In this document: positions 311 through 63,684 of the stretch, piece by piece
Layout: each line of letters starts with the position of its first letter
Position numbering within the stretch: the stretch's first letter is position 1
Made by a program: the position numbers and the translations under genes
Notes under the pieces: model-generated
What the model saw: the letters and a program-made list of their open reading frames with translations, nothing else
Told to the model about the DNA's origin: nothing
Databases searched by the model: none
Source: a virus
Taxonomy: Duplodnaviria; Heunggongvirae; Uroviricota; Caudoviricetes
Virus record (IMG/VR): IMGVR_UViG_3300029859_000151
Direction: 5' to 3' (one strand)
DNA length: 64,000 nt

Positions 311-322
311 TCTGACATATTA
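311..322 (+). promoter_or_regulatory. phage promoter motif copy (TCTGACATATTA core)
   Basis: exact 12-mer; one of 38 same-strand copies, each 25-60 nt upstream of a + strand start codon. Confidence 0.55.
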
Positions 323-361
323 AAAATATAATGAAAAACATTGAAAAAAGGAGAAAAATAA

Positions 362-544
362 ATGACGAAAAAAGAAATGAGAAAAATGGCTAAAAATAAA
401 TTGTTAGAAAGTATTGCCGTTACATATTATAAGTTAGAAGATGAAAATTTATCAGAAGAGGAGGTTGAACAAATTAGTAAATATATTAATCAGTATGGAG
501 AAGCAATGGCCAAAACAATAGGTGAAAGATATTATACAATGTAA
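362..544 (+). CDS. hypothetical small protein (60 aa)
   Basis: ORF with RBS AAAGGAGAAAAATAA-ATG downstream of promoter motif. Confidence 0.4.
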   Translation: MTKKEMRKMAKNKLLESIAVTYYKLEDENLSEEEVEQISKYINQYGEAMAKTIGERYYTM

Positions 545-562
545 AACTTTATTTTTTGAAAA

Positions 563-574
563 TCTGACATATTA
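563..574 (+). promoter_or_regulatory. phage promoter motif copy
   Basis: TCTGACATATTAAATATAAA; no obvious CDS directly downstream (next gene at 901 has its own copy). Confidence 0.45.
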
Positions 575-740
575 AATATAAATAAAAATAAAAAGGTTTA
601 TGAAAAAAGGAATTGGAAACGTTTTCTCCTAGCTAGGTAAAAATTTATAGTTTAAATTTGACTTTAGGGGATATAACGAAACAAACAAAAACTCAGAAAC
701 TCAGAAAAGTTAAGTAAACTAATCTGAGAAAACAAAAGCT

Positions 741-800
741 AATCTGAGAAAAACAAAAGGCTCCGAGACGAAAGTCCCGGGGCTTTCTTTTTCCTTTTCA
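741..800 (+). terminator. terminator module (copy 1 of duplicated cassette)
   Basis: CTAATCTGAGAAAA(A)CAAAAG x2, then hairpin CCGAGAC-GAAA-GTCCCGG with GAAA tetraloop and U-tract; near-identical copy at 1838-1890. Confidence 0.5.
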
Positions 801-819
801 TTTTTTTATTTTTCAAAGA

Positions 820-831
820 TCTGACATATTA
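820..831 (+). promoter_or_regulatory. phage promoter motif copy + conserved 70-nt leader
   Basis: TCTGACATATTAAATATGAACATTAAAAATGAG..AACTCAAATATTTATGAAAAAAGGAGG; leader cassette also at 1917, 5210, 8540, 11068. Confidence 0.6.
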
Positions 832-900
832 AATATGAACATTAAAAATGAGTTTTTTAAAAACTCAAATATTTATGAAAAAAGGAGGTTACAATATAAA

Positions 901-1575
901 ATGAGTAATATGAAGAACTTGACAGTTGAGTACCAGAGAGGAAATAGAGCGTGCATATTTAATCCTGCAGTAGATGCAATAGTACCATATGCAACAGTGA
1001 ATGGGAAAAAGGCAATGCAGGTATTAGAAGAGCAAAATGCAGTATTGAGACTTGCAGACAATGGAGATACACCATTAGCCGCAGTGTTAACAGCAATAAA
1101 TCGTGGTGGAGTAGAGATAGGCGGGAAAACGTCATGTCGAATAACAAAGGATAGTGGTAGGGTACTATTCTCAAAAAAGAAAGATGGCATACCTATTGTA
1201 GTACAGAACAGTGGAAATAAAAAGATAAAACTCGATAGTGACTTTGTTGAAATGATGAAATATGACACAAGTCATTTTGGATGGGTAATGTACAACATAG
1301 CACAGAATGAAGATGATAAAATACTTCTGATAGAGAAAGACTCATGCAAATATATGGATATGCCTGGGATAGTGCTAAAGCGAAAGAGCATAAAAGAGAG
1401 CAAAGCAATAAAAGAGTCATATAAAATAATGAAAAGCGGAGGGATAGTAACAAAGTATTGTTTAGGCGGCATACAGTATTGCAGTAAGTATGCGCAAGGC
1501 GACGAAATAGAGGCAGCAAAACAGCAAAGAGAACGTACTAGAGCAGGAGTAAGGGCAGCAACAAGACTTGATTAA
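901..1575 (+). CDS. hypothetical protein (224 aa)
   Basis: ATG at 901 follows AAAAAAGGAGG RBS; the track's ATG at 835 lies inside the conserved promoter motif (ATATGAA) and is rejected as a start. Confidence 0.6.
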   Translation: MSNMKNLTVEYQRGNRACIFNPAVDAIVPYATVNGKKAMQVLEEQNAVLRLADNGDTPLAAVLTAINRGGVEIGGKTSCRITKDSGRVLFSKKKDGIPIVVQNSGNKKIKLDSDFVEMMKYDTSHFGWVMYNIAQNEDDKILLIEKDSCKYMDMPGIVLKRKSIKESKAIKESYKIMKSGGIVTKYCLGGIQYCSKYAQGDEIEAAKQQRERTRAGVRAATRLD

Positions 1576-1577
1576 GC

Positions 1578-1916: not shown

Positions 1917-1928
1917 TCTGACATATTA
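1917..1928 (+). promoter_or_regulatory. phage promoter motif copy + conserved leader
   Basis: TCTGACATATTAAATATGAACATTAAAAATGAATTC...AAATATTTATGAAAACGGGAGG. Confidence 0.6.
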
Positions 1929-2358: not shown

Positions 2359-2370
2359 TCTGACATATTA
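2359..2370 (+). promoter_or_regulatory. phage promoter motif copy
   Basis: ATATCTGACATATTAAAAATAA. Confidence 0.55.
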
Positions 2371-2409: not shown

Positions 2410-3351
2410 ATGAAAAAACAACTTCAGAATATTTCTATTGCTGGATGTATTGGAGCAGGAAAAAGCATGATATCTAAAGAACTGGAAAAAGAGGGCTACC
2501 AAATTGTCTCTGCCGGAAGCCTTTTTCGCCAATACGCAAAAGAGCATAATATCTCTATAGAAGAAGCTATTTCCGGCCATACAGAAATTGATACAAAAAT
2601 TGATTCAAATATTGTAAATCTAGGGAAAACAAAATCTGGGATTGTTTTTGACTCTAGAATGGCATGGCATTTTGTGCCAGATAGTTTTAAGGTATTTGTT
2701 TATGCTGATTTGGACGTGGCTGCTGATAGAGTTTTTAAAGCAAATCGTGAAACCGAAAGTTTTCAAACAATTGAAGAATGCAAAAATAATATTTTATCCA
2801 GACAATCAAAAGAACTAGCGAATTATCAAAAAATGTATGGACAAGATTATATGGATAGCAAAAATTATGATTTGATTATTGATTCTACATATGCAACGCC
2901 AGAAGAAGTAGCAAAGAAAATTTTAGAGTGCATTGATCATCCTCATGCAAAATTTCAAATGAATCCCAGGTCTTTATATCCAACTCAGAATATTAGAGAT
3001 TTGTCAGGAGAAATTCTTGATCAATATGTGAAAAAAGAAATTCCTGCTGGCAGTATTAAAATAGGATGTTATGATGGATACTTTGGGGTTACAGATGGGC
3101 ATCACAGATTTTTAGCTGCTGCTATAAATAAAGAGCCTTTTATTTCGGCTGAATTTGATCCTATGCCAGAAAAAACACATATTGTCTCTAAGACCGAAAT
3201 TTATAATTATGAAGACGTTGCTGGATTTTATTATTCAGAATATCCGGAGGATAAAGAAAAATATTGTTTCGTTGAATTTTGTAATGAAAGTCCGGAAATA
3301 ACTGTTGGATTTGAAAAAGAAAAAGAAGATGTATTGGAAGTTGAACCATAG
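2410..3351 (+). CDS. cytidylate-kinase-like P-loop kinase fused to ParB/Srx-like domain (DGHHR motif)
   Basis: N-terminus has Walker A IAGCIGAGKS and SAGSLFRQ, resembling the cytidylate-kinase-like family. C-terminus has GCYDGYFGVTDGHHRFLAA, resembling the ParB/sulfiredoxin (DGQHR-like) fold. ATG at 2410 after GAAAGGAGAAGG RBS. Confidence 0.7.
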   Translation: MKKQLQNISIAGCIGAGKSMISKELEKEGYQIVSAGSLFRQYAKEHNISIEEAISGHTEIDTKIDSNIVNLGKTKSGIVFDSRMAWHFVPDSFKVFVYADLDVAADRVFKANRETESFQTIEECKNNILSRQSKELANYQKMYGQDYMDSKNYDLIIDSTYATPEEVAKKILECIDHPHAKFQMNPRSLYPTQNIRDLSGEILDQYVKKEIPAGSIKIGCYDGYFGVTDGHHRFLAAAINKEPFISAEFDPMPEKTHIVSKTEIYNYEDVAGFYYSEYPEDKEKYCFVEFCNESPEITVGFEKEKEDVLEVEP

Positions 3352-3499: not shown

Positions 3500-3904
3500 A
3501 TGCATTTAGACACAAATAATCATTCGGTGTTCATGTTACATTATCATCTTATCATGTGTGTAAAATATCGTAATAAAGTGATAAATGATGATATCTCTAA
3601 TCGTTTGAAGGAGATATTTATAAAGATGCTCCTACCTATAATATTACGTTAGAAGAATGGAATCACGATATAGACTATGTTCATGTTCTATTTAGAGGGC
3701 AACCAAATACTGAAATCAGTAAATTTATTAATGCTTATAAATCTGCAAGCAGTCGGTTTATCAAAAAAGAATATCCAAAGATTCGCAAATCTCTTTGGAA
3801 AGAGATGTTCTGGTCACAAAGTTTTGCCTACTGACCACAGGTGGAGTTACTACAGATATTATTAAACAATATATTCAATCACAAGGTAAAAAAGATGGCA
3901 AATA
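3500..3904 (+). pseudogene. tnpA: IS200-like Y1 (HUH) transposase TnpA, disrupted by at least two frameshifts
   Basis: translation MHLDTNNHSVFMLHYHLIMCVKYRNKVINDDISNRLKEIF in frame 1 continues as KDAPTYNITLEEWNHDIDYVHVLFRGQPN..SKFINAYKSASSRFIKKEYPKIRKSLWKEMFWSQSF in another frame and ..CLLTTGGVTTDIIKQYIQSQ in a third; total span about 135 codons, equal to full-length TnpA. Confidence 0.65.
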
Positions 3905-5034
3905 AAGCAATTAAATATAGAGTATACCCTACAACTGAACAAAGTATCATGTTTGCAAAAACCTTTGGCTGTTGCCGTAAGGTCTATAATCTTATGCTTT
4001 CTGATAAGATTGAAGGTTATAAAATGACTGGTAAATTTCCAATAGTCACACCTGCTAAATATAAAAATGAATATCCCTATCTTAGAGAAGTAGATAGTCT
4101 TGCTCTTGCCAACAAACAGATGGATTTGCAGGAAGCCTTTCGTAACTGTTTTAGCAGATCTCGTAAAAAGAATAATGGATTTCCTAAATATAAATCTGCA
4201 AAGCATAGCCGTAAAGCATATACTACAAACAATCAGAAAGGTACAATTTCTATTATAGATAACAAATATATCAAACTTCCTAAAATTGGTAAAGTGAAAG
4301 CTGTCATCCATCGTAACCCTGATAGCTATTGGGTTATTAAATCTGCTACTGTATCTCAGGAATCAGATGGAAAATATTATATTTCTATACTTTTTGAATT
4401 TGATAATGTTGTAAATACTTATATAGCCGATAAAGCGAATGCTATCGGATTAGATTATGCTTCTAATGGCTTATATGTGGACAGTAATGGCGATGTAGGC
4501 ACTAACCACAAATACTATCGTGAAAGCCATGATAAACTTGCCAAGGCACAACGGAGATTATCACGCATGCAAGGTTCTAAAAAGGATGAAGAAAAGTCTA
4601 ATAATTACATTAAACAGCTGCGTAAAGTAAACAAAATCCACAGACATATTGCTAATCAGCGTTTAGATAACTTACATAAAATATCTACTGAGATAGCCAA
4701 TCAGTACGATGTTGTTTGCGTGGAAAGTCTAAACATGAAAGCTATGTCCAATAAGGGATTTGGAAACGGTAAGGCTACTCTTGACAATGGATATGGCATG
4801 TTTCTGTCGATGCTTAAATATAAGCTGACTGATAGAAATAAGTATCTTGTAAAAGTAGATAAATGGTTTCCGTCATCACAAATATGTCATTGCTGCGGTG
4901 CATTACATCCCGAAATGAAGAATTTAGCAATCCGTACAATGAAATGTGATTGCGGTCTTACAATCAGTCGTGACCAGAACGCAGCTATCAATATATTACA
5001 GGAAGGATTACAGATTCTGACTGAAGCAGCATAG
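3895..5034 (+). CDS. tnpB: TnpB (RuvC-like RNA-guided nuclease family, OrfB_IS605) with C-terminal zinc finger
   Basis: MANKAIKYRVYPT N-terminus; RuvC-like blocks IGLDYASNG, VVCVESLNMK, RDQNAAINIL; CHCCG..CDCG zinc finger; start overlaps the tnpA end. Confidence 0.85.
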   Translation: MANKAIKYRVYPTTEQSIMFAKTFGCCRKVYNLMLSDKIEGYKMTGKFPIVTPAKYKNEYPYLREVDSLALANKQMDLQEAFRNCFSRSRKKNNGFPKYKSAKHSRKAYTTNNQKGTISIIDNKYIKLPKIGKVKAVIHRNPDSYWVIKSATVSQESDGKYYISILFEFDNVVNTYIADKANAIGLDYASNGLYVDSNGDVGTNHKYYRESHDKLAKAQRRLSRMQGSKKDEEKSNNYIKQLRKVNKIHRHIANQRLDNLHKISTEIANQYDVVCVESLNMKAMSNKGFGNGKATLDNGYGMFLSMLKYKLTDRNKYLVKVDKWFPSSQICHCCGALHPEMKNLAIRTMKCDCGLTISRDQNAAINILQEGLQILTEAA

Positions 5035-5209: not shown

Positions 5210-5221
5210 TCTGACATATTA
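5210..5221 (+). promoter_or_regulatory. phage promoter motif copy + conserved leader
   Basis: sits immediately outside the IS right end; TCTGACATATTAAATATGAACATTAAAAATGAGTTTTTTTAAAACTCAAATATTTATGAAAAAAGGAG. Confidence 0.6.
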
Positions 5222-5285
5222 AATATGAACATTAAAAATGAGTTTTTTTAAAACTCAAATATTTATGAAAAAAGGAGAAACGGAA

Positions 5286-5480
5286 ATGAAAGAACAACGT
5301 TTATATGTATGTGAAATGCGTGGAACTAAATACAATGAGAAGGAACGTGCATTAGATTGTGAAAAGGCACATATGCGTCCAGTTGGTTTTGCGGGAATGA
5401 AATTTCATGCAAATGCGACTATTCCTGATTGGGTAGAGGTAACTTTTCCAGATGGATCAAACTGTAGATATAAACATTAA
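5286..5480 (+). CDS. hypothetical protein (64 aa)
   Basis: ATG after GGAGAAACGGAA; the track's upstream ATG lies within the leader motif. Confidence 0.5.
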   Translation: MKEQRLYVCEMRGTKYNEKERALDCEKAHMRPVGFAGMKFHANATIPDWVEVTFPDGSNCRYKH

Positions 5481-5566
5481 AGAGAAAAAAGTGCGTAGGA
5501 TAAAAAAAGTATGCAAAAAATTAACTGAGCACTGCATTTATGGAAAGGTATAAAGGAGAGTAAATA

Positions 5567-7427: not shown

Positions 7428-7630
7428 AAATTCCCTTCTCTCTATTTTCTTGTTATATACCTTATATTTGTTTTACGTTCTATATTTTGCAATTTATTTC
7501 ACAATCAATATTATATTTATTTTATCTAATATGTCAGAAGAATGCAATGCAGAAAATCGGTACAACAACTTTTGAATTGTTTTAAATCAAATGCATATCT
7601 ATAAGCAAAAGTACGTATTGCTTATTTTGT

Positions 7631-7642
7631 TTTTTTAAAATC
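7631..7642 (+). promoter_or_regulatory. phage promoter motif copy
   Basis: TCTGACATATTAAATATGAATTTTAGATTATGAAAAAAGGAGG; the RBS-like leader is not followed by a start codon. Confidence 0.5.
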
Positions 7643-7687
7643 TGACATATTAAATATGAATTTTAGATTATGAAAAAAGGAGGAAAT

Positions 7688-8539: not shown

Positions 8540-8551
8540 TCTGACATATTG
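8540..8551 (+). promoter_or_regulatory. phage promoter motif copy (variant ..ATATTG) + conserved leader
   Basis: TCTGACATATTGAATATGAACATTAAAAATGAATTCAATAGGAATTCAAATATTTATGAAAACAGGAG. Confidence 0.55.
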
Positions 8552-11067: not shown

Positions 11068-11079
11068 TCTGACATATTA
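11068..11079 (+). promoter_or_regulatory. phage promoter motif copy + conserved leader
   Basis: TCTGACATATTAAATATGAATTTAAAACGAGTTCATAAAAACTCAAATATTTATGAAAAATGGAGG. Confidence 0.6.
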
Positions 11080-12685: not shown

Positions 12686-12871
12686 AGTACTGCCTTCCTA
12701 TATTATTCTTTCTTTATAAATAATATGTCAGCAAAATGAATTCATTTTTTAGGTATAAAATATTTATAAACAATCTGGAGCATTGATTGTGTTTACTTTT
12801 TGCTCGGCGCATATATAATATATAAATTTCAAATAAGACTTCATATTCTCCATGACCTTATTTTTCTCCTA

Positions 12872-12883
12872 TCTGACATATTA
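12872..12883 (+). promoter_or_regulatory. phage promoter motif copy
   Basis: TATCTGACATATTAAATATGAAATTTAAAAAC. Confidence 0.55.
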
Positions 12884-14598: not shown

Positions 14599-14610
14599 TC
14601 TGACATATTA
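14599..14610 (+). promoter_or_regulatory. phage promoter motif copy
   Basis: ATCTGACATATTAAATAAAAG, 31 nt before ATG 14642. Confidence 0.55.
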
Positions 14611-15396: not shown

Positions 15397-15408
15397 TCTG
15401 ACATATTA
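15397..15408 (+). promoter_or_regulatory. phage promoter motif copy
   Basis: TTTCTGACATATTAAATATGACAGC. Confidence 0.55.
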
Positions 15409-16413: not shown

Positions 16414-16425
16414 TCCGACATATTA
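16414..16425 (+). promoter_or_regulatory. phage promoter motif, degenerate variant (TCCGACATATTA)
   Basis: only copy with C at position 3; precedes the candidate ncRNA region rather than a CDS. Confidence 0.4.
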
Positions 16426-16682: not shown

Positions 16683-16694
16683 TCTGACATATTA
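16683..16694 (+). promoter_or_regulatory. phage promoter motif copy
   Basis: TTTCTGACATATTATTTTAAAG. Confidence 0.5.
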
Positions 16695-17698: not shown

Positions 17699-17710
17699 TC
17701 TGACATATTA
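17699..17710 (+). promoter_or_regulatory. phage promoter motif copy
   Basis: TTTCTGACATATTAGTTATGAAATG. Confidence 0.55.
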
Positions 17711-20269: not shown

Positions 20270-20281
20270 TCTGACATATTA
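20270..20281 (+). promoter_or_regulatory. phage promoter motif copy
   Basis: TTTCTGACATATTAAAATTAAAT. Confidence 0.55.
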
Positions 20282-21570: not shown

Positions 21571-21582
21571 TCTGACATATTA
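21571..21582 (+). promoter_or_regulatory. phage promoter motif copy
   Basis: CAAGATCTGACATATTAAAAAAGAG. Confidence 0.55.
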
Positions 21583-24496: not shown

Positions 24497-24508
24497 TCTG
24501 ACATATTA
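24497..24508 (+). promoter_or_regulatory. phage promoter motif copy
   Basis: TTTTCTGACATATTAAAAGAAAAATT. Confidence 0.55.
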
Positions 24509-26887: not shown

Positions 26888-26899
26888 TCTGACATATTA
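26888..26899 (+). promoter_or_regulatory. phage promoter motif copy
   Basis: TTTTTCTGACATATTAGTAATATAAAC. Confidence 0.55.
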
Positions 26900-30617: not shown

Positions 30618-30629
30618 TCTGACATATTA
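30618..30629 (+). promoter_or_regulatory. phage promoter motif copy
   Basis: AATATCTGACATATTAAATTAGAA. Confidence 0.55.
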
Positions 30630-30944: not shown

Positions 30945-30956
30945 TCTGACATATTG
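30945..30956 (+). promoter_or_regulatory. phage promoter motif copy (variant ..ATATTG)
   Basis: ACATCTGACATATTGAATATGTAACC. Confidence 0.5.
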
Positions 30957-32876: not shown

Positions 32877-32888
32877 TCTGACATATTA
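32877..32888 (+). promoter_or_regulatory. phage promoter motif copy driving the tRNA cluster
   Basis: TTTTCTGACATATTATATATGGATC, about 105 nt upstream of tRNA-Met. Confidence 0.5.
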
Positions 32889-33144: not shown

Positions 33145-33156
33145 TCTGACATATTA
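33145..33156 (+). promoter_or_regulatory. phage promoter motif copy (in front of tRNA-Glu)
   Basis: TATTTCTGACATATTATATATGAAATC. Confidence 0.5.
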
Positions 33157-34628: not shown

Positions 34629-34640
34629 TCTGACATATTA
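34629..34640 (+). promoter_or_regulatory. phage promoter motif copy
   Basis: GTATCTGACATATTAAATATGAAATG. Confidence 0.55.
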
Positions 34641-37060: not shown

Positions 37061-37087
37061 TATTTTTATAATTAAAATCTGACATAT

Positions 37088-37099
37088 TGTTTTTAAGGA
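37088..37099 (+). promoter_or_regulatory. phage promoter motif copy (variant ..ATATTG)
   Basis: AAATCTGACATATTGTTTTTAAGG. Confidence 0.5.
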
Positions 37100-38980: not shown

Positions 38981-38992
38981 ATTTTTTCTATC
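38981..38992 (+). promoter_or_regulatory. phage promoter motif copy
   Basis: CTATCTGACATATTAAATATGAGG. Confidence 0.55.
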
Positions 38993-39043
38993 TGACATAT
39001 TAAATATGAGGCTTAGAAATAAAAGAAAATGGGAGGATTTTTT

Positions 39044-39502: not shown

Positions 39503-39514
39503 ATCTGACATATT
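39503..39514 (+). promoter_or_regulatory. phage promoter motif copy (variant ..ATATTG)
   Basis: AAATCTGACATATTGATAATAAAT. Confidence 0.5.
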
Positions 39515-39562
39515 GATAATAAATAAAATTATTAAATTGTAAATGAAGATTGGAGAATAATT

Positions 39563-40415: not shown

Positions 40416-40427
40416 TCTGACATATTA
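40416..40427 (+). promoter_or_regulatory. phage promoter motif copy
   Basis: GGATATCTGACATATTAAAAATAGG. Confidence 0.55.
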
Positions 40428-42592: not shown

Positions 42593-42604
42593 TCTGACAT
42601 ATTA
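42593..42604 (+). promoter_or_regulatory. phage promoter motif copy
   Basis: GATATCTGACATATTAAATTATAG. Confidence 0.55.
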
Positions 42605-45885: not shown

Positions 45886-45897
45886 TCTGACATATTA
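45886..45897 (+). promoter_or_regulatory. phage promoter motif copy
   Basis: AAAGATCTGACATATTAAAAATATAG. Confidence 0.55.
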
Positions 45898-49444: not shown

Positions 49445-49456
49445 TCTGACATATTG
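49445..49456 (+). promoter_or_regulatory. phage promoter motif copy (variant ..ATATTG)
   Basis: AAAATCTGACATATTGAACTTG. Confidence 0.5.
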
Positions 49457-53039: not shown

Positions 53040-53051
53040 TCTGACATATTA
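53040..53051 (+). promoter_or_regulatory. phage promoter motif copy
   Basis: ATATCTGACATATTAAAAATAAAAAG. Confidence 0.55.
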
Positions 53052-54288: not shown

Positions 54289-54291
54289 TAT

Positions 54292-54303
54292 CTGACATAT
54301 TAA
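54292..54303 (+). promoter_or_regulatory. phage promoter motif copy
   Basis: TATCTGACATATTAAAAATGAAATT. Confidence 0.55.
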
Positions 54304-57183: not shown

Positions 57184-57195
57184 TCTGACATATTA
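57184..57195 (+). promoter_or_regulatory. phage promoter motif copy
   Basis: TTTTCTGACATATTAAAAGAAAAC. Confidence 0.55.
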
Positions 57196-58068: not shown

Positions 58069-58080
58069 TCTGACATATTA
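58069..58080 (+). promoter_or_regulatory. phage promoter motif copy
   Basis: AATTCTGACATATTATATTTGAATT. Confidence 0.55.
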
Positions 58081-58117: not shown

Positions 58118-59209
58118 ATGAAAGCAATTTTGAGTTCATCTTTTGAAAAAAATGGTTCTTCATTTGAAGAATTTTGTGAAGATAGAAAACGATTCGAAGA
58201 AAGCACATTCCGGTGGCAAAATAATTTCCGAGATGTTGATTTTGCATTATGGATATTTAGATCTGTTACAAACGACAATAAAATCCAAGTATTAAAGGTT
58301 GCTGAAGATATTGTAGAAGCAATTGGCACATGGACATTTGATTCAAATAAAAAGATTGTTAATCAAGCAATTATGGATGGGAACAAACTCCCAGATGAAA
58401 TCTTAGACGATATTAAAGAAAAGTCGATTCCAATGGCAATAGAATATGGAAAACATTTTTTCTTTGTAGATTCAAATTGTCTTAGTAGATTTTGTGCTAA
58501 ACTAGGCGTTTCGACAAAGCTTATTTATCAAAATAATTATATTGGTGGATTGGTTTTATGGCATGCCTTAAAGAATTATCATAAGGATTTAACATTGAAT
58601 GTAAGATGTGACAAGGGATATAGAAAAGTTGTTAACGTTATTTCAGAAAAGACAATTTATTCATCTGCAATTGATGTTGTTAAAAATATTCATAGTGTTA
58701 CTAATTATGTTTTTTCATATTATGCCATGACACAATATACAACATCCTGTTTTTTGGATGGACCTGTAATTGATGGCGCATACATTCCTTCTATTCGAAT
58801 GGAGTTTTCCGATACAGGACATGGTGATGAAAATTTTTATTTTTGCTTACGTCCAGTCGAAATGCGAGGAAGTCCATCTTTTGGCATTATTATTAAAAAG
58901 CTAAAAAAAGCAGATGTAAACGAAATTTCAAATATCGAAAAAATGGTCACTGAAAGAATTCGAAAAATTCGATTGGAATATACAGCAGTTGTTTTTGATA
59001 AAGAAAAGTTTTTGGAAAATCAAGATATTCTTAAAGCAATTGGGCAAAAACGTATGCGAAATATATCTATGAGGTTTGACGGACAGAATTGCTGTGAAGC
59101 AATGAAAATTATTTCGATGATTCCGGTTTTAATTGGGAAAATAAATGACACATCTGATTATGCTTTGATGATTTCAGCAGGAAATTTTTTCATGCATTTT
59201 GAAATATAG
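58118..59209 (+). CDS. hypothetical protein (363 aa)
   Basis: RBS GAAGAAAGGAGATAATA-ATG. Confidence 0.5.
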   Translation: MKAILSSSFEKNGSSFEEFCEDRKRFEESTFRWQNNFRDVDFALWIFRSVTNDNKIQVLKVAEDIVEAIGTWTFDSNKKIVNQAIMDGNKLPDEILDDIKEKSIPMAIEYGKHFFFVDSNCLSRFCAKLGVSTKLIYQNNYIGGLVLWHALKNYHKDLTLNVRCDKGYRKVVNVISEKTIYSSAIDVVKNIHSVTNYVFSYYAMTQYTTSCFLDGPVIDGAYIPSIRMEFSDTGHGDENFYFCLRPVEMRGSPSFGIIIKKLKKADVNEISNIEKMVTERIRKIRLEYTAVVFDKEKFLENQDILKAIGQKRMRNISMRFDGQNCCEAMKIISMIPVLIGKINDTSDYALMISAGNFFMHFEI

Positions 59210-59261
59210 TAGAAGCGTTGAAACATAAAATAAAAAACATATCTTAAAGGAGAGAAATATT

Positions 59262-59909
59262 ATGGCAACAGTAGAAGTTTTTAGACGAGGAAATAAGGTT
59301 GTATTAGTGGGAAAGGTCAGTGAAGTTTTTGAAGGAACATCTCAGAAGGGAACTAATTATGTACGATTAGTCCTTGGCCAGCGGCATTGGGACCCAGATA
59401 TGGAAATGGACATTGAGGAATCTGTAACCGTTATTTTTACAGATAATGAAAATGGAAAATTCGGACCAGCAATGAATGCAACAAACGTCAGTAAGTTAAA
59501 GATTCGAACAGGGGCAACAATTGCTATTAAAGCTACTGTATCAGAGAATGATGACGGAACGGTATCTTATTTTGGTATCCGGGCACAGTATTGTGGTTGC
59601 ATTTATAAATTTAAGCCAACAGACGATTTTCCGTCAACGAATGTGATTGTCGGTGTTGCGGTAGTTAAGGCTAATAATAATGTTAGCGTTCCAGTCAATG
59701 CATATGACAATAAAACTCACGAAAGTAAAACTATTTGGCTCAATACAAAAGCGGCAGAGCAGGCAGAAGTTGTTAACGGAACTTTTGATCTAACAGATAA
59801 TAAGAAAAATCCTATTGTCGCATTTGTTGTACCTAAAATTACTGAAACAGAAAAAGATGGAATGACAAACTGGGCAGGAGATTTTATTGATTGCCGAAGA
59901 ATTTCATAG
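59262..59909 (+). CDS. hypothetical protein (215 aa), possible OB-fold
   Basis: RBS AAAGGAGAGAAATATT-ATG; beta-rich, VVLVGKV..TNYVRLVLG pattern. Confidence 0.5.
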   Translation: MATVEVFRRGNKVVLVGKVSEVFEGTSQKGTNYVRLVLGQRHWDPDMEMDIEESVTVIFTDNENGKFGPAMNATNVSKLKIRTGATIAIKATVSENDDGTVSYFGIRAQYCGCIYKFKPTDDFPSTNVIVGVAVVKANNNVSVPVNAYDNKTHESKTIWLNTKAAEQAEVVNGTFDLTDNKKNPIVAFVVPKITETEKDGMTNWAGDFIDCRRIS

Positions 59910-59925
59910 AATGAAAAAATTTAGG

Positions 59926-59960
59926 ATCTCTGCATTTTGCAGAGATCTTATTTTTTGAAG
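59926..59960 (+). terminator. rho-independent terminator
   Basis: AGATCTCTGCA-TTTT-GCAGAGATCTTATTTTTTG. Confidence 0.7.
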
Positions 59961-59962
59961 TA

Positions 59963-59974
59963 TCTGACATATTA
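59963..59974 (+). promoter_or_regulatory. phage promoter motif copy
   Basis: GTATCTGACATATTATTATTGATTG. Confidence 0.55.
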
Positions 59975-60015
59975 TTATTGATTGTAAATATATAAGAAAA
60001 AAGGAGAGTTAAATT

Positions 60016-61086
60016 ATGTTAAGTAATGAAATTGTTTATGAGAAAGCAACAATCTTTTCTCCGAGATTAGGAAAAGATATTGAAGTTGAAACATATGCAG
60101 GAGATAATGGAAGTATTGTTATTTCTGCTATTAGTTTAAGAGATGCAGCAAAGAAAGCATGTGAGAGTTTGAAAACATCTATTGGAACAACATTGGTTCA
60201 GATGTTCCCAAATGAAAATGGTGAAGTTGGATATTGTTTAGTAAAAACGACTTTACGAATTCAGAATAATGAGAATGAGGAAATTATTCAAGGGTATGGA
60301 GAATTTTGCGCATCTGGAGCAAAAAATGAGATTGCATTGACGAATCCTTTTGCGGTTGCTCAGAATAGAGCTGAGTCAAAATGTTTTATTAAATTTTTAG
60401 GACTTTCTGGAAGAGTATATTCATCTGATGAAATGGATTCAGTTAATCGTTCTAATTTTCAGCAGATTTTAGAGCAGGCTGGAAAAAATGCTAAAAATGA
60501 AAATCAGCAGAATGGATTTGTTACAGCAAAAGTAGAGTCTTCTATTGCAGCGCCTGAAAAAGTAGGAGAGGCCGAAAAGAAGGAGATTACTAATACGGTA
60601 AATGAAACAACAGAAAAGACAGGAAAAGTAGAAAAGACAGAAAGTCCTGTTAAAAATGTTGCAGATAATACAAACACAGATAAAAAGAAGGCGACTGATA
60701 CAGACACAAAGACAAAGAATGAGGAAAACATTCAGCCTGTTAAGACTGAAATTACTGATCCTAATGTAGAAGAAATTAAGTCAGATGATGAAGACGATAC
60801 AAAAAAATCAGCTGATAAAATGCCGGTTTCAGATGAAGCGTCTTCAATGGCGGACAAGGCAGGCGAATCTTCGGCAAACGAAACTTCTGAAACAAAAACA
60901 ACAGACAATGGATTAAATTTAATTGTAACATTTGGACCAGCAAAAGGAAAGAATTTGACGGTTAAGGATGTTTTAGCTGATCCGATTTATGCAAAGTTTG
61001 TTGAGAATATTAAAAGTGGAAGAGCTGTTGCCCCATATAATAATGAGGAAAGATTGGCTATTTTTGAAGCAATTAAGAATAACTAA
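60016..61086 (+). CDS. hypothetical protein (356 aa) with central low-complexity T/K/E-rich linker
   Basis: RBS AAAAAAGGAGAGTTAAATT-ATG; structured N- and C-terminal domains. Confidence 0.5.
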   Translation: MLSNEIVYEKATIFSPRLGKDIEVETYAGDNGSIVISAISLRDAAKKACESLKTSIGTTLVQMFPNENGEVGYCLVKTTLRIQNNENEEIIQGYGEFCASGAKNEIALTNPFAVAQNRAESKCFIKFLGLSGRVYSSDEMDSVNRSNFQQILEQAGKNAKNENQQNGFVTAKVESSIAAPEKVGEAEKKEITNTVNETTEKTGKVEKTESPVKNVADNTNTDKKKATDTDTKTKNEENIQPVKTEITDPNVEEIKSDDEDDTKKSADKMPVSDEASSMADKAGESSANETSETKTTDNGLNLIVTFGPAKGKNLTVKDVLADPIYAKFVENIKSGRAVAPYNNEERLAIFEAIKNN

Positions 61087-61106
61087 AAACATAAGCGTTT
61101 CAAATG

Positions 61107-61143
61107 AATTAAAGAGAGAGAAGAAATTCTCTCTCTTTTTTGT
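61107..61143 (+). terminator. rho-independent terminator
   Basis: AGAGAGAG-AAGAAATT-CTCTCTCTTTTTTGTG. Confidence 0.7.
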
Positions 61144-61161
61144 GCAAAACAGCAGAAAAAA

Positions 61162-61173
61162 TCTGACATATTA
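61162..61173 (+). promoter_or_regulatory. phage promoter motif copy
   Basis: AAATCTGACATATTAAATAAAAAAC. Confidence 0.55.
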
Positions 61174-61201
61174 AATAAAAAACAGAAAGGAGCGGCGATT
61201 T

Positions 61202-63601
61202 TTGAATTTTCCGCCGAAGGTATTGTTTATGAAAAAAGCTTTGCTGATTGCAGAAAAACCAAATTATATGCGAGATATAAAAGCTGTTTATGAAAAGCAT
61301 AAATCTGAAATTCCTTTTAATATTGATTTTATTGCGCAAAGAGGGCATTTAGTTCAGTTGTTAGATCCAGCAGAAATGAATGAAATTTATAAAAGCTGGG
61401 ACATCAATTATTTGCCAATTGTTCCAGAGGATGAAGGTGGTTGGAAATATAAGATTATTCCGGGTGCAGAAAATTTAATGAAGGAAATTAAAAAGAAGCT
61501 TCATTCTGGAGAATATGACCTTATTATCCATGCTGGCGATTCAGATCAGGAGGGAGAGCTTTTGGTTCGCCTGGTTTTAGACGAATTAAAAAATACATTG
61601 CCGGTTATCCGGTTATGGGTAAATGCGACCACGGAATCAGAAATTTTAGCAGGTCTTAAAAACATGAAAAGTGATGATGAGGCAATGTATGAGAATTTAT
61701 ATTATTCTGCGCTTGTCAGACAACATTCTGATTGGCGTTTTGGTATGAACGGATCGCGGGCAGTTGCAAATAAGATCGTCACGTCAAAAGATAACAAAAT
61801 TGCAGTTGGAAGAGTAATGACGGCAATTTTGTCTATTGTTGTTAAAAGAGAAGATGATATTAAAAACTTTAAACCACAAACAACTTATGGAATAGTTTTA
61901 AATCATTCAAATGGATTGGAAACGCAGCTATTTCAAGAAGAAGTGACAACTGATGAAAAAGGAAAAAAGAACATTTCTCAAAATCTCGTGTATTTTGATA
62001 CGGAAAAAGAAGCAGAGGATTTTATTGATAAATTAGATGAGAAAAGTATCGTCCTTTCTGTGGAAGAAAAAAATGAAAAAGTATATGCGCCAAAGTTATA
62101 TAATTTGTCGGATTTGCAGTATGATGCTTCAAAATTAAATTTCTCTCCAGATGAAACACTTGAGATTGTGCAAGGATTATATGAAAAACATTTTTTGACA
62201 TATCCGAGAACAGATTGCAATTATTTAAATAGTACAGATAAATTTGAAGAAATGATTCATGCAGCGGCATCTGTACCAGGGTATGAAATAATTGCTAAGG
62301 AAGTAATAGGAAATATTGAAAGTGTTAAGAAAAACAAAAAGTTTGTAAATAACGAAGAGTTAAAAAAGCATGGGCATTCCGCTTTATGCCCGACAGATGT
62401 ACCGGCTGATTTTGAAAGGTTGTCAGCAGATGAACAATTAATATATAAATTGGTTTGTCGGAGATATTTGTCTATTTTCTTGCCGCCTATGATTCAGAAA
62501 AAGACAATAGTTGTTGTTGAAAATAACGACAATTTGTTCCGAACGATAGGAAAAAGAATAATTGATAAAGGATATACTACATTTCTTAATGCAGAAATAA
62601 AAAACACAGATCTTCCGGAAGTGAAAAAGGGAGAAATGTTAGAGGTTGATAAAAAAAATATTGTTGAAAAAACGTCCACTTGTCCAAAGCGGTTTACATC
62701 AGGAGATCTCGCTAGAGCATTAGAGAATCCGGCAAAATTTTTACAAGATAAAAATATTGTTAATAAGGATTTTAAAATAGGAACGTCTTCAACAAGAGCA
62801 GAAATTATTAAAAAGTTAATCAAAGACAAATATTTGTCAAGCAATTCAAAACAAGTGTTATCGCCAACGGAATGGGGAAGTTTTTTGGCTCACGCATTAA
62901 AAGATCTTGATATTTCAAAAGCGGATATGACTGCGAAATGGGAAGACCTGCTACAGAGAATTAAAAAAGGAGAATTACCCGTAGAACAGGCGGAAGACAT
63001 GATGCGCAGGGAAGTAAAAAAGCTTATATATGATATTAGCAATATGCAGGAATACACATTTGGGGATGTGAATGCCAATACTAGAATTGTTGGGAAATGT
63101 CCATATTGCGGGAAAGATATTATAAATTCTGGGAAAAATTATTTTTGTTCTGGTTATAAAGAGGGGTGTAACACTTCAATACCACTAGAGTTTTTGGGGG
63201 CTAAATTTTCATCAGATGATGCAATGGCACTATTTAAAGGAGCTGTTATTACTAAAAAATTAAAGAAAGATAAGAGTACTTGGCAACAAGATTTGAGATT
63301 TAATAAAGGAACTGGCCGAATAGAATTTGTAAAAAATGATGCAGAAACAGACATTTCTTGTCCTAAATGCGGAAGAAAATTGAAACATGATGGCGCTATT
63401 TTAAAGTGTGAATGTGGATATAGCTTATGGACAAAGGTAGCTGGATATGAGTTGTCAGATGATGAATTGGGCTATATATTTGAACATGGATCTACACATA
63501 AGCCTATTAAAAAATTTAAAAGCAGTAAAGGAAAAGCATTTTCTGCTAATCTAAAATTAAAAAAGGACTATAGTGGATTTGAGTTTGTCTTTGAAAAATA
63601 A
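61202..63601 (+). CDS. type IA DNA topoisomerase (topoisomerase III-like) with C-terminal zinc ribbons
   Basis: Toprim N-terminus KKALLIAEKPNY and HAGDSDQEGELL (DxDxEGE); active-site Tyr motif LTYPRTDCNYL; C-terminal CPYCG..C..C and CPKCG..CECG. TTG at 61202 has the better RBS; alternative ATG at 61229. Confidence 0.8.
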   Translation: MNFPPKVLFMKKALLIAEKPNYMRDIKAVYEKHKSEIPFNIDFIAQRGHLVQLLDPAEMNEIYKSWDINYLPIVPEDEGGWKYKIIPGAENLMKEIKKKLHSGEYDLIIHAGDSDQEGELLVRLVLDELKNTLPVIRLWVNATTESEILAGLKNMKSDDEAMYENLYYSALVRQHSDWRFGMNGSRAVANKIVTSKDNKIAVGRVMTAILSIVVKREDDIKNFKPQTTYGIVLNHSNGLETQLFQEEVTTDEKGKKNISQNLVYFDTEKEAEDFIDKLDEKSIVLSVEEKNEKVYAPKLYNLSDLQYDASKLNFSPDETLEIVQGLYEKHFLTYPRTDCNYLNSTDKFEEMIHAAASVPGYEIIAKEVIGNIESVKKNKKFVNNEELKKHGHSALCPTDVPADFERLSADEQLIYKLVCRRYLSIFLPPMIQKKTIVVVENNDNLFRTIGKRIIDKGYTTFLNAEIKNTDLPEVKKGEMLEVDKKNIVEKTSTCPKRFTSGDLARALENPAKFLQDKNIVNKDFKIGTSSTRAEIIKKLIKDKYLSSNSKQVLSPTEWGSFLAHALKDLDISKADMTAKWEDLLQRIKKGELPVEQAEDMMRREVKKLIYDISNMQEYTFGDVNANTRIVGKCPYCGKDIINSGKNYFCSGYKEGCNTSIPLEFLGAKFSSDDAMALFKGAVITKKLKKDKSTWQQDLRFNKGTGRIEFVKNDAETDISCPKCGRKLKHDGAILKCECGYSLWTKVAGYELSDDELGYIFEHGSTHKPIKKFKSSKGKAFSANLKLKKDYSGFEFVFEK

Positions 63602-63606
63602 AAATA

Positions 63607-63640
63607 AGTCGCATAGTTAATTCTATGCGGCTTGTTTTTT
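63607..63640 (+). terminator. rho-independent terminator
   Basis: AGTCGCATAG-TTAATT-CTATGCGGCTTGTTTTTTGC. Confidence 0.7.
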
Positions 63641-63646
63641 GCAATG

Positions 63647-63655
63647 CTGTACCGA
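63647..63655 (+). promoter_or_regulatory. upstream element (CTGTACCGA, truncated A-run)
   Basis: 17 nt 5' of the promoter core at 63673. Confidence 0.35.
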
Positions 63656-63672
63656 TTTTTTAATGCAAAAAA

Positions 63673-63684
63673 TCTGACATATTA
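63673..63684 (+). promoter_or_regulatory. phage promoter motif copy
   Basis: AAATCTGACATATTAGAAGAAG. Confidence 0.55.

What the first reader, a model, noticed from the sequence alone, without database searches (positions are those of the whole stretch)
311..63684. A 38-copy, strictly co-oriented promoter-like motif (TCTGACATATTA-AATATGAA) heads almost every transcription unit
Seen directly: 38 occurrences of TCTGACATATTA (32 exact; 5 with G at the last position; 1 with C at position 3), all on the + strand, none on the - strand. Each sits 25-60 nt before a start codon or before the tRNA cluster, and each is usually preceded by a hairpin terminator, so most genes are single-gene transcription units. 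The motif has no canonical -35 partner at 17-bp spacing, so it is unlikely to be a standard sigma70 promoter. It looks like the recognition site of a phage-encoded RNA polymerase or sigma/specificity factor. The single host-type promoter at 48414 and the three minus-strand genes lack it. This would define the temporal program of the element.
Basis: seen in the sequence. Interest (0 to 1): 0.7.

Follow-up and report, generated by a model that had tools for sequence, protein, structure and literature searches.

The report
Private promoter of a giant plasmid-like element
A 12-base sequence that sits in front of nearly every transcription unit of this ~250-kb plasmid-like element is most likely the promoter read by a divergent sigma factor that the element encodes itself, so the element appears to run its genes through its own transcription channel.

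Summary
TCTGACATATTA (at most 1 mismatch) occurs 40 times against 0.74 expected. Both - strand copies face minus-strand genes. All 38 + strand copies are intergenic.

The motif has the register of an extended -10 promoter (TCTG-n-CATATT). A tRNA gene starts 16 nt after one copy, so the motif must be start-proximal and cannot be a -35 element. In relatives with very different proteins the core TCTGnCATATT is unchanged, and the base that varies is the 'n'.

The window is not from a recognisable phage. It is 100% identical to part of a 262-kb gut-metagenome scaffold. This plasmid-like element resembles the recently described "Inocle" elements.

The same element family encodes a divergent 337-aa sigma-70-family protein next to its primase and DnaE. 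The sigma operon carries the motif. Sigma and motif co-occur in all seven lineages examined.

The best reading is that these are promoters of an element-encoded sigma that directs host core RNA polymerase. This is correlative: there is no transcription-start or binding data, and only about 45% of the genome was inspected. No temporal classes were seen.

The parts
311..322 (+). motif TCTGACATATTA; drives ORF 362-544
563..574 (+). motif; no ORF downstream, about 210-nt structured RNA ending at terminator 770-787
820..831 (+). motif plus about 70-nt repeated leader; drives 901-1575 and 1593-1763
1917..1928 (+). motif plus repeated leader; drives 2003-2299
2359..2370 (+). motif after terminator 2317-2342; drives cytidylate-kinase-like 2410-3351
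5210..5221 (+). motif plus repeated leader; drives small-ORF operon 5286-6557
7527..7538 (-). exact motif on the minus strand with TGTACCGA upstream; drives minus-strand ORF 6585-7427
7641..7652 (+). motif; 253-nt leader, then 7906-8415
8540..8551 (+). motif variant TCTGACATATTG plus repeated leader; drives operon 8616-10970
11068..11079 (+). motif after terminator 10995-11032; drives 11143-12363
12721..12732 (-). GCTGACATATTA on the minus strand; drives minus-strand ORF 12392-12685; divergent from 12872
12872..12883 (+). motif; drives NT5C/guanylate-kinase-like 12926-14545
14599..14610 (+). motif; drives 14642-15358
15397..15408 (+). motif after terminator 15348-15377; drives 15456-16379
16414..16425 (+). 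TCCGACATATTA with CTGTACCGA upstream; no ORF, about 215-nt highly structured RNA ending at terminator 16610-16637
16683..16694 (+). motif; drives 16747-17620
17699..17710 (+). motif after terminator 17647-17685; drives operon to about 20197
20270..20281 (+). motif; drives 20324-21470
21571..21582 (+). motif; drives UvrD/PD-(D/E)XK helicase-nuclease 21625-24453
24497..24508 (+). motif; drives 756-aa protein with T2SSE ATPase domain 24541-26811
26888..26899 (+). motif; drives 26934-30531 (three ORFs)
30618..30629 (+). motif; drives 30666-30908
30945..30956 (+). TCTGACATATTG with CTGTACCGA upstream; drives 30998-31144 and SPFH/flotillin 31238-32770
32877..32888 (+). motif with CTGTACCGA upstream; drives tRNA-Met 32994-33066
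33145..33156 (+). motif with CTGTACCGA upstream; tRNA-Glu starts 16 nt after the motif end (33173), followed by 7 more tRNAs
34629..34640 (+). motif; drives RecJ 34679-36328 and 36350-37012
37078..37089 (+). TCTGACATATTG; drives 37173-38914
38991..39002 (+). motif; drives 39044-39265
39504..39515 (+). TCTGACATATTG after terminator 39458-39492; drives 39563-40375
40416..40427 (+). motif with TATACCGA upstream; drives RecD2-like helicase 40456-42573 (28 nt from motif end to ATG)
42593..42604 (+). motif; drives 42644-45817
45886..45897 (+). motif with CTGTACCGA upstream; drives 596-aa ORFan 45940-47730
49445..49456 (+). TCTGACATATTG after terminator 49387-49422; drives split nrdD 49504-52944
53040..53051 (+). 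motif with TGTACCGA upstream; drives DUF4317 protein 53079-54143
54291..54302 (+). motif; drives second RecD2-like helicase 54346-56943
57184..57195 (+). motif; drives SSB 57242-58033
58069..58080 (+). motif; drives 58118-59909
59963..59974 (+). motif after terminator 59922-59950; drives 60016-61086
61162..61173 (+). motif after terminator 61113-61134; drives topoisomerase 61202-63601
63673..63684 (+). motif with CTGTACCGA upstream; drives an 8-gene operon beyond the window (S26 signal peptidase, ALP_N actin-like)

Best explanation
TCTGACATATTA is the core of the element's own promoter. It is an extended -10-type promoter (TCTG-n-CATATT) with no fixed -35 element. A divergent sigma-70-family factor of 337 aa, encoded by the same element, most likely recognises it and recruits the host core RNA polymerase.

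Transcription is predicted to start 6-7 nt after the motif, at the purine of AATAT(G/A)AA. About 40 such promoters in 64 kb head units of one to eight genes, two tRNA units and two ORF-less structured RNAs. Many units end at hairpin terminators.

The sigma operon (76-aa ORF, sigma, primase) carries the same promoter, so sigma would feed back positively on itself.

What is shown: the motif's statistics, position, orientation and conservation; the existence and family of the sigma; and their co-occurrence. What is inferred: that this sigma reads this motif, the position of the start site, and the positive feedback.
For: Promoter anatomy:
- There are 40 copies against 0.74 expected. All 38 + strand copies are intergenic in a window that is 82% coding, and both - strand copies face minus-strand genes.
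- A ribosome-binding site plus start codon lies within 140 nt downstream of 67 of 78 family-wide sites.
- A terminator-like hairpin ends within 60 nt upstream of 13 of 38 copies, against 3% of random positions.

Start-proximal position:
- tRNA-Glu begins 16 nt after the motif at 33145.
- Several start codons lie only 27-32 nt after the motif with a ribosome-binding site in between. The start site must therefore lie within about 16 nt of the motif, which rules out a -35 role.
- Just downstream, at the distance expected for a start site after a -10 hexamer, T (30 of 40) is followed by a purine (39 of 40).

Conservation:
- In orthologous promoters of two lineages the 12-mer is 58/60 identical while the flanks are 38-40% identical.
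- In relatives whose sigma is only 24-30% identical the core TCTGnCATATT persists. The changes fall at the 'n' (A, T or C) and at base 12. This is what the extended -10 register predicts.

Sigma:
- L001:9712-10725(-), also called P0285, matches NCBIfam TIGR02937 at E = 3e-8.
- The family profile matches solved SigA structures at E = 1e-19 across regions 2-4.
- Distant members hit Pfam Sigma70 region 2, 3 and 4 models.

Same element as the window:
- DnaE, which lies 1.4 kb downstream of sigma in every locus read, occurs on contigs of 247,902, 247,509 and 376,025 bp. Contigs of those same lengths also carry proteins of the window or its flanks.
- In relatives, sigma-DnaE is directly followed by orthologues of window genes 57242-63601.

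Sigma and motif together:
- The sigma operon carries the motif in all lineages.
- No RNA polymerase or other sigma was found in the window.
Against: - There is no transcript 5'-end or binding data, so the sigma-motif link is correlative.
- Only about 116 kb of roughly 250-370 kb was inspected. Another sigma or a polymerase could lie elsewhere in the genome.
- The sigma gene was never read on the same stretch as the window. The link rests on coincident contig lengths and on synteny in relatives.
- The sigma has a region 4, but the promoters show no conserved -35 element.
- The promoter core stays the same although sigma diverges to 24-30% identity. This could instead mean that a conserved host factor reads it.
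- A host housekeeping sigma might use TGaCATATT as a weak extended -10 promoter.
- The structure prediction for the sigma never finished.
Confidence: 0.62

Rival explanations
1. The motif is a promoter, but a host sigma reads it. This could be the housekeeping SigA using it as an extended -10 promoter, or a host alternative sigma that recognises a -10 box beginning with C, as the sporulation sigmas do, or a lone -10-like box, as ComX does. The element's own sigma would then serve another purpose.
For: - The register TG-n-hexamer with A at -11 and T at -7 fits sigma-70-family recognition in general.
- The Inocle paper interprets the element's sigma as a stress factor, 'RpoS' (PMC12340149).
Against: - Host promoters are never this uniform. 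Here 33 of 40 copies are the identical 12-mer, and 2-3-mismatch versions show no promoter-like placement.
- The hexamer departs from TATAAT at -12 and -8, and canonical -35/-10 pairs are not enriched.
- The one gene with a textbook TGgTATAAT promoter (48477) lacks the motif.
- A sigma gene is a conserved, syntenic core gene of the family and sits behind the motif itself.
- Its region 2.4 differs from SigA at the positions that read -12 (alignment).
Confidence: 0.2
2. The motif is the promoter of an element-encoded RNA polymerase, single-subunit or multisubunit, that lies in the unread part of the genome.
For: - A near-invariant promoter of 12 bases or more without a -35 element is typical of phage-type polymerases.
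- More than half of the element was not inspected.
- IMG/VR files fragments of the element as viral.
Against: - No polymerase signature was found in the window or in any locus fetched up to that point (the window's central and right-hand neighbourhood and the IMG/VR fragments): no DFDGD motif and no Pfam or PHROG hit.
- The family-invariant pattern TCTG-n-CATATT with a free 'n' is specific to sigma-type extended -10 recognition.
- A sigma is present and conserved.
- The Inocle description lists a sigma but no polymerase.
Confidence: 0.08
3. The motif is not the promoter itself. It would be a binding site for a DNA-binding regulator (a global repressor or activator), or an RNA-level signal such as a processing site in the 5' leader.
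For: - Its position, 27-83 nt upstream of start codons and co-oriented with genes, would also fit a leader-RNA element.
- A second conserved box, (C)TGTACCGAAAA, 22-26 nt upstream in 10 of 40 copies shows that regulators probably act at these regions.
Against: - No other conserved element nearby could serve as the promoter.
- Many copies lie directly after terminators, so a new start is needed there.
- The tRNA-Glu gene begins 16 nt after the motif, which leaves no room for a promoter between them.
- Divergent pairs of motifs (7527-/7641+ and 12721-/12872+) are what back-to-back promoters look like.
Confidence: 0.07

Closest known systems
Extended -10 (TGn) promoters of sigma-70-family holoenzymes (established knowledge; examples include the -35-independent middle and late promoters of Thermus phage P23-45)
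   Same: The register TG, one free base, then a hexamer with A at position 2 and T at position 6. No -35 element is needed. A pyrimidine-purine step lies 6-7 nt downstream, where the start site would fall. The free base is the one that varies among relatives.
   Different: The hexamer is CATATT rather than TATAAT. TC before the TG is invariant, and Gram-positive promoters usually have TRTG. All 11-12 bases are near-invariant across about 40 promoters.
SigN (ZpdN) of Bacillus subtilis plasmid pBS32 (PMC6751061)
   Same: A plasmid-encoded, divergent sigma directs host polymerase to a regulon on the plasmid and activates its own gene.
   Different: SigN promoters have both a -35 (TTTACGTTT) and a -10 (TAGATA) element and cover only part of an 84-kb plasmid. 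sigN is bootstrapped by LexA-repressed SigA promoters, and its induction kills the cell. Here one motif heads essentially every unit seen, including replication genes and tRNAs, and no SigA-type bootstrap promoter was identified; the single weak candidate falls within chance.
Phage-encoded sigma factors with their own promoter classes (SPO1 gp28 and gp33/34; T4 gp55 with TATAAATA late promoters) - recalled from established literature, not tested here
   Same: A sigma encoded by a mobile element redirects host core polymerase to a sharply defined promoter motif. T4 late promoters also lack a -35 element.
   Different: Those factors define temporal classes within a lytic programme. Here there is a single class and no phage genes. 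The sigma here has regions 2, 3 and 4, unlike the minimal gp55.
Inocle giant extrachromosomal elements of oral Streptococcus (Kiguchi et al. 2025, PMC12340149)
   Same: Size 245-395 kb; GC about 32%; co-oriented genes along a replichore; insertion-sequence-rich; tRNAs; DNA polymerase III alpha; RecD-like helicases; RecJ; a topoisomerase (listed as 'gyrase'); S26 signal peptidase; type IV secretion genes; a sigma annotated as 'RpoS'; mostly ORFans; absent from plasmid and phage databases (compared).
   Different: The marker gene InoC (PF13814) was not seen in the roughly 116 kb inspected. Inocles are reported as rare in faeces, while these contigs come from assemblies of cohorts I take to be faecal; that attribution is from my own reading of the sample labels and was not checked. 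The paper never mentions promoters and treats the sigma as a stress-response gene.
Hodor conjugative megaplasmids of gut Bacillota (PMC12934698)
   Same: Megaplasmids of more than 200 kb from human gut metagenomes that were first filed among 'huge phages'.
   Different: Their GC content is 45-47%, against 31% here. They have Rep_3/ParAB modules and sortase surface modules. The paper mentions no sigma, DnaE or tRNAs.

Membership tests
Extended -10 class promoter of a sigma-70-family holoenzyme | TG dinucleotide one base upstream of a -10 hexamer that has A at its second and T at its sixth position | tested here: met
   TCTG-A-CATATT is invariant in 40 of 40 copies. The intervening base is the variable one in relatives.
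Extended -10 class promoter of a sigma-70-family holoenzyme | Transcription starts 5-9 nt downstream of the hexamer | not testable with these tools
   Only bracketed. The tRNA-Glu 5' end lies 16 nt after the motif, and a T then purine step lies 6-7 nt after the hexamer. 5'-end mapping is needed.
Canonical -35/-10 housekeeping promoter | TTGACA-like hexamer 16-18 bp upstream of the -10 hexamer | tested here: not met
   There is no information beyond T-richness at that position. Consensus pairs number 104 against 104.9 expected.
Sigma-70 family (for the 337-aa protein P0285) | Sequence homology to regions 2, 3 and 4 | tested here: met
   TIGR02937 at E = 3e-8 and 33 bits, below the curated cutoff of 42.9. 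The family profile matches SigA structures at E = 1e-19 over regions 2-4. Distant members hit Pfam Sigma70_r2, r3 and r4. The protein itself has no Pfam hit.
Sigma-70 family (for the 337-aa protein P0285) | Binds core RNA polymerase and directs initiation at the motif | not testable with these tools
   Needs in vitro transcription or genetics.
Inocle elements (PMC12340149) | Marker gene InoC, about 454 aa with a PF13814 replication-relaxation domain | tested here: inconclusive
   No PF13814 hit among window proteins or in the precomputed Pfam lists of flanking and related loci. More than half of the genome is unread.
Inocle elements (PMC12340149) | Plasmid-like replicon of 245-395 kb, GC about 32% (24% in the delta group), insertion-sequence-rich, with gene orientation following replichores | tested here: met
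   Contigs of 216-262 kb, with others up to 376 kb. GC is 31% and cumulative GC skew rises monotonically. IS605 TnpB and IS110 are present. Of the 70 genes called in the window, 68 are on the + strand. Circularity was not tested.
Inocle elements (PMC12340149) | Conserved gene set: DNA polymerase III alpha, RecD-like helicase, exonuclease/RecJ, topoisomerase, sigma ('RpoS'), S26 signal peptidase, type IV secretion genes | tested here: met
   DnaE; two RecD2-like helicases, RecJ and topoisomerase; sigma; Peptidase_S26 PF10502 and a weak TrbL_2 hit. VirB4 and VirD4 themselves were not seen in the parts read.
Tailed phage or jumbo phage | Terminase, capsid, portal or tail genes, or similarity to known phage genomes | tested here: not met
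   No DNA match in 50,697 phage records beyond tRNA-sized pieces. A 773-aa ORFan has no protein match in phages or plasmids. PHROG hits are limited to DNA-metabolism families. Only about 45% of the element was read.

The most novel reading that the evidence does not exclude
A whole family of giant plasmid-like elements of human-associated Bacillota (Inocle-like, 250-400 kb) runs essentially all of its roughly 300 genes from one private promoter type, read by one self-encoded and self-activating sigma factor. This covers replication, tRNA, secretion and surface genes. The result would be a transcription channel insulated from the host. Its promoter core has stayed fixed while the sigma protein diverged to about 25% identity. 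The sigma annotated as 'RpoS' in Inocles would then be the element's master housekeeping sigma and not a stress factor.
Probability: 0.5. Interest if true: 0.78.

Novelty: new variant of a known kind. Interest (0 to 1): 0.66.

Why it matters
Sigma factors encoded by mobile elements, each with its own promoters, are known from phages and from one Bacillus plasmid. There they control a subset of genes or a temporal class.

Here a single near-invariant promoter heads practically every transcription unit of a prevalent, uncultured ~250-kb or larger element, and a conserved sigma travels with it.

If the link holds, it would:
- explain how such giant elements express hundreds of ORFan genes independently of host promoter rules;
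- reinterpret the 'RpoS' of Inocles;
- give a simple sequence tag (TCTGnCATATT in intergenic regions) for recognising and binning fragments of these elements in metagenomes;
- offer a compact, possibly orthogonal sigma-promoter pair for Gram-positive synthetic biology.

It also makes transcript maps, such as the metatranscriptomes already used in the Inocle study, directly interpretable.

Tried and rejected
- **CTGACA as a -35 hexamer.** Rejected. There is no conserved -10 element 16-18 bp downstream, and the tRNA-Glu gene and several start codons are too close to the motif. Only the two minus-strand copies happen to have a TATAAT-like hexamer at that distance.
- **A sporulation-sigma-type -10 (CATnnTA) with a GnATR -35 element.** No such -35 is present.
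- **A polymerase in the window.** No DFDGD-type motif in six frames, and no Pfam or PHROG hit.
- **Motif string in the literature.** Only chance matches.
- **Scan of GTDB species genomes with a 20-mer.** Chance hits only, so no host was found.
- **Scan of IMG/VR with a 14-mer.** Swamped by chance hits.
- **Five IMG/VR hits to the 20-mer (L002, L005, L006, L008, L009).** These look like a conserved stretch shared by unrelated contigs rather than a promoter (reading frames there were not checked).
- **The sigma in the homologue search.** The word-seeded search at first seemed to show that the ~250-kb contigs lack the sigma. Cluster look-ups showed this was an artefact of cluster representatives.
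- **Walking along the scaffold.** Blocked by the look-up rule.
- **Looking up the TnpB protein to jump elsewhere in the genome.** It returned only the same place.
- **Hodor megaplasmids.** Considered and rejected on GC content and gene content.
- **AlphaFold model of the sigma.** The job never finished, so no fold search was run.
- **A SigA-type bootstrap promoter for the sigma operon.** One weak candidate, within chance.

Full report
**1. The observation**

A search for TCTGACATATTA allowing one mismatch gives 40 matches, against 0.74 ± 0.88 in dinucleotide-preserving shuffles. Of these, 32 are exact, 5 end in G, and 1 (16414) has C at position 3.

Both lie just upstream of the minus-strand ORFs 6585-7427 and 12392-12685. 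Each forms a back-to-back pair with a + strand copy (7641 and 12872). The motif therefore follows gene orientation and is not tied to one DNA strand.

All 38 + strand copies are intergenic, although 82% of the window is coding. Versions with 2-3 mismatches are scattered through coding sequence on both strands and look like background. The set is sharply bimodal.

**2. Anatomy**

A position-by-position count over the 40 copies shows four zones:
- a T-rich tract about 6-17 nt upstream;
- the invariant block T-C-T-G-A-C-A-T-A-T-T;
- A (35 copies) or G (5 copies) at position 12;
- a weaker A-A-t-A-T-R-A-A, in which T (30 of 40) is followed by a purine (39 of 40) 6-7 nt after the block.

There is no information at a -35 position, and TTGACA/TATAAT-type pairs are not enriched (104 found, 104.9 expected).

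The block has the register of an extended -10 promoter: TG, one base, then a hexamer (CATATT) with A at its second and T at its sixth position. These are the two bases that sigma-70-family region 2 flips out (established knowledge).

Position relative to genes:
- The motif end lies 27-83 nt before most start codons, with an AGGAGG-type ribosome-binding site in between.
- The motif directly precedes 35 of 68 + strand genes. The other 33 lie further down in operons of up to eight genes. 'Most genes are single-gene units' is therefore overstated.
- Terminator-like hairpins are enriched (21 against 7.4 expected in the first 20 kb). One ends within 60 nt upstream of 13 of 38 motifs, against 3% of random positions.

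The tightest constraint comes from the tRNA cluster. tRNA-Glu starts at 33173, only 16 nt after the motif at 33145-33156. The transcription start must lie inside those 16 nt. The motif is therefore the start-proximal promoter element, and CTGACA cannot be a -35 hexamer.

**3. What the window is**

There is no meaningful DNA match in 50,697 phage records. A 773-aa ORFan has no protein match in phages or plasmids. No species-representative genome carries the 20-mer other than by chance.

The window is 100% identical to positions 19,455-83,454 of ENA scaffold ERZ28637546:VISC19-1_SAMEA5814749 scaffold_9, which is 262,177 bp long. Near-identical contigs of 216-249 kb occur in many other assemblies.

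Genes recognised in the window:
- a UvrD/PD-(D/E)XK helicase-nuclease;
- a protein with a T2SSE ATPase domain;
- an SPFH/flotillin protein;
- RecJ and two RecD2-like helicases;
- an anaerobic ribonucleotide reductase split by a homing-endonuclease insert;
- SSB and a topoisomerase;
- nucleotide kinases;
- an IS605 TnpB;
- nine tRNAs.

Just beyond the right end lie an S26 signal peptidase, an ALP_N actin-like protein and a weak TrbL_2 hit. Most other ORFs match nothing. No phage structural gene, RNA polymerase or sigma factor is in the window.

**4. A sigma factor**

Scanning IMG/VR for the motif plus its common downstream bases found two contigs, 3300029859_000323 and 3300029692_000251. They share only promoter-region similarity with the window but carry many copies of the motif. 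They encode a DnaE-type polymerase III alpha, a DnaG-like zinc-ribbon primase and, next to these, a 337-aa protein (L001:9712-10725, minus strand) whose sequence reads like sigma region 2.

Evidence on this protein:
- Pfam does not detect it.
- NCBIfam TIGR02937, the sigma-70 superfamily model, matches at E = 3e-8. This is 33 bits, below the curated cutoff.
- An exhaustive HMMER search found 99 distant homologues.
- A profile of 26 of them matches solved SigA structures from B. subtilis (7ckq), C. difficile (7l7b), S. aureus (8x6f), Thermus and cyanobacteria at E about 1e-19, across regions 2.1 to 4.2.
- Distant members reach Pfam Sigma70_r2, r3 and r4.

It is therefore a full-length but very divergent sigma-70-family protein.

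In the alignment, its segment TTFIARDLKLAINKY lies opposite STYATWWIRQAITRAI of SigA. The positions that read the -12 base in housekeeping sigmas (Q437 and T440 in E. coli numbering, from established knowledge) are L and N here. The family's most conserved block, GLSQYYNEQNVKIQ, lies opposite region 3.0, the part that reads the TG of extended -10 promoters, and keeps the glutamate. This reading fits a -12C/TCTG specificity but is inference only.

**5. Is the sigma in the same element as the window?**

The first homologue searches listed only short contigs. Exact-sequence cluster look-ups corrected this:
- The sigma cluster has 170 members, on contigs up to 292 kb.
- The adjacent DnaE occurs on contigs of 247,902 bp, the length of the contig that carries the window's RecD2 (L014).
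- DnaE also occurs on contigs of 247,509 and 376,025 bp, the lengths of contigs that carry the window's flank proteins.

Sigma lies 1.4 kb upstream of DnaE in every locus read (L001 and L161-L166). The IMG/VR contigs are therefore another part of the same element.

Independent support comes from distant relatives. There the order is sigma-(primase)-DnaE-SSB-x-x-x-topoisomerase, and the last five genes are orthologues of window genes 57242-63601. SSB is 44-51% identical and topoisomerase 54-61% identical.

I did not read sigma and window on one continuous stretch, so this step is a strong inference and not a direct observation.

**6. Conservation of the motif with the sigma**

The sigma operon is preceded by the motif in every lineage.

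Comparison of two lineages whose sigmas are 66% identical: across five orthologous promoters the 12-mer is 58/60 identical, while ungapped flanks are 38-40% identical.

Relatives with more divergent sigmas:

| Locus | Sigma identity | Intergenic motifs |
|---|---|---|
| L167 | 30% | TCTGACATATTA, TCTGACATATTT, TCTGTCATATTA |
| L168 | 28% | mostly TCTGTCATATTA |
| L169 | 25% | TCTGTCATATT[A/C/T], TCTGCCATATTT |
| L172 | 24% | TCTGTCATATAT |

The family-invariant core is TCTG-n-CATATT. The free position is exactly the 'n' of an extended -10 promoter. Over all loci, 67 of 78 sites have a ribosome-binding site and start codon within 140 nt downstream.

**7. Mechanism proposed**

The element-encoded sigma binds host core RNA polymerase and recognises TCTGnCATATT as an extended -10 element. 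No fixed -35 contact is needed. The T-rich upstream tract may add a contact of the kind made by UP elements. Initiation occurs at the purine 6-7 nt downstream.

Because the sigma operon has the same promoter, expression would be self-reinforcing. How it is first switched on in a new cell is open. No convincing SigA-type promoter precedes sigma. Weak use of the motif by host SigA is one possibility.

All functional classes seen use the same motif, including tRNAs, replication and repair genes, partition and secretion-like genes and two ORF-less RNAs. I therefore see no evidence for temporal classes.

A subset of 10 of the 40 promoters carries a second box, (C)TGTACCGAAAA, 22-26 nt upstream of the motif. 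Its variable spacing argues for a regulator site and against a -35 element.

Shown: the statistics, placement, orientation, start-proximal constraint, conservation, the existence and family of the sigma, and their co-occurrence. Inferred: that this sigma reads this motif, the exact start site, and the positive feedback.

**8. Rivals**

- **A host sigma reads the motif (about 0.2).** The unchanged core despite strong sigma divergence speaks for this. The extreme uniformity of the motif, its departure from TATAAT, and the conserved syntenic sigma behind its own motif speak against it.
- **An unseen element-encoded polymerase (about 0.08).** This cannot be excluded while more than half of the genome is unread. 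The free 'n' pattern is specific to sigma-type recognition.
- **An operator or an RNA-level signal (about 0.07).** This leaves no promoter for the tRNA unit and no other conserved element to serve as one.

**9. Comparison with what is known**

The motif string is absent from the searchable literature.

The element matches the published description of Inocles, giant plasmid-like elements of oral Streptococcus (PMC12340149). Shared features are size, 32% GC, replichore-oriented genes, insertion sequences, tRNAs, polymerase III alpha, RecD-like helicases, RecJ, a topoisomerase, S26 signal peptidase, type IV secretion genes and a sigma annotated as 'RpoS'.

Two points remain open. The defining marker InoC (PF13814) was not in the parts I could read. 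Inocles are reported as rare in faeces, while these contigs appear to come from faecal cohorts; I infer this from the sample labels and did not check it. I therefore call the element Inocle-like, with membership unproven. That paper does not mention promoters and treats the sigma as a stress factor.

Hodor megaplasmids are a different family (45-47% GC).

The closest mechanistic precedent is SigN of plasmid pBS32, a plasmid-encoded, self-activating sigma with a plasmid regulon (PMC6751061). It differs in having -35/-10 promoters, SigA and LexA control, and only partial coverage of the plasmid.

**10. Verdict**

The feature is real and highly non-random. It is very probably a promoter (about 0.9) and probably the cognate site of an element-encoded sigma (about 0.6). 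It is not a phage-polymerase promoter and not a temporal switch.

It is a new variant of a known kind: a mobile-element sigma with private promoters. It is notable because one motif appears to govern almost a whole giant element and is conserved across a deep family.

Noticed in passing
window 49504-52944: The anaerobic ribonucleotide reductase gene nrdD is split (49504-50190 and 51400-52944) by an insert of about 1.2 kb that carries a NUMOD4/HNH homing-endonuclease ORF (50319-51275). Other strains (L013, L014) have an intact 734-aa NrdD. Rfam finds no known intron family there.
   Followed up: partly
window 563-795 and 16414-16645: Two units running from motif to terminator contain no ORF and are predicted to give RNAs of about 210 nt with strong structure (z = -5.0 and -7.2). 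The second is a string of short hairpins with CACGAAG/CGAAAG loops. Rfam has no match.
   Followed up: partly
window 16390, 30919, 32853, 33121, 40394, 45864, 53014, 63650 (+); 7557, 12750 (-): A second conserved box, (C)TGTACCGAAAA, lies 22-26 nt upstream of the motif in 10 of the 40 promoters, including both tRNA promoters. It also occurs in relatives (L007, L095, L165, L169). It is probably a regulator site that defines a sub-regulon.
   Followed up: partly
window 832-900, 1929-2002, 5222-5285, 8552-8615, 11080-11142: A repeated 5' leader of about 70 nt (AATATGAACATTAAAAATGAGTTTTTTAAAAACTCAAATATTTATGAAAAAAGGAG) with a small hairpin follows five promoters. A shorter TTATGAAAAAAGGAG precedes many start codons.
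   Followed up: no
window 47731-49440: A 1.7-kb AT-rich, mostly non-coding stretch contains direct repeats: a 34-mer twice (47849 and 47918) and a 23-mer in tandem (48163-48208). It lies downstream of a 596-aa ORFan with a C-terminal helix-turn-helix-like tail. The repeats resemble iterons, so this may be a replication or partition site. It also holds the only gene with a textbook TGgTATAAT promoter (48433-48441, driving 48477-48821) and no motif.
   Followed up: partly
window 3895-5034; L148/L149 9605-9940; L001 1433-2608: Insertion sequences differ between strains. An IS605-type TnpB is present in the window, with a Y1 transposase remnant next to it in some strains. An IS110 transposase is inserted near DnaE in some contigs. 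This fits the insertion-sequence-driven assembly breaks described for Inocles.
   Followed up: no
window 37640-38914 and 42644-44224; L165 4913-7326; L158 7350-9730; L167 6864-9680: A family of ORFan paralogues (about 400-530 aa, 23-44% identical over the aligned segments) occurs twice in the window. In every lineage it also occurs as a tandem pair immediately upstream of the sigma operon. Its function is unknown, and a link to sigma is possible.
   Followed up: no
L165 7629-8642 (sigma) and cluster of P0285: Many database copies of the sigma are called as 396 aa from an upstream start that overlaps the 76-aa ORF. The word-seeded homologue search did not return this cluster's representative, which at first made the sigma look absent from the large contigs.
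   Followed up: yes
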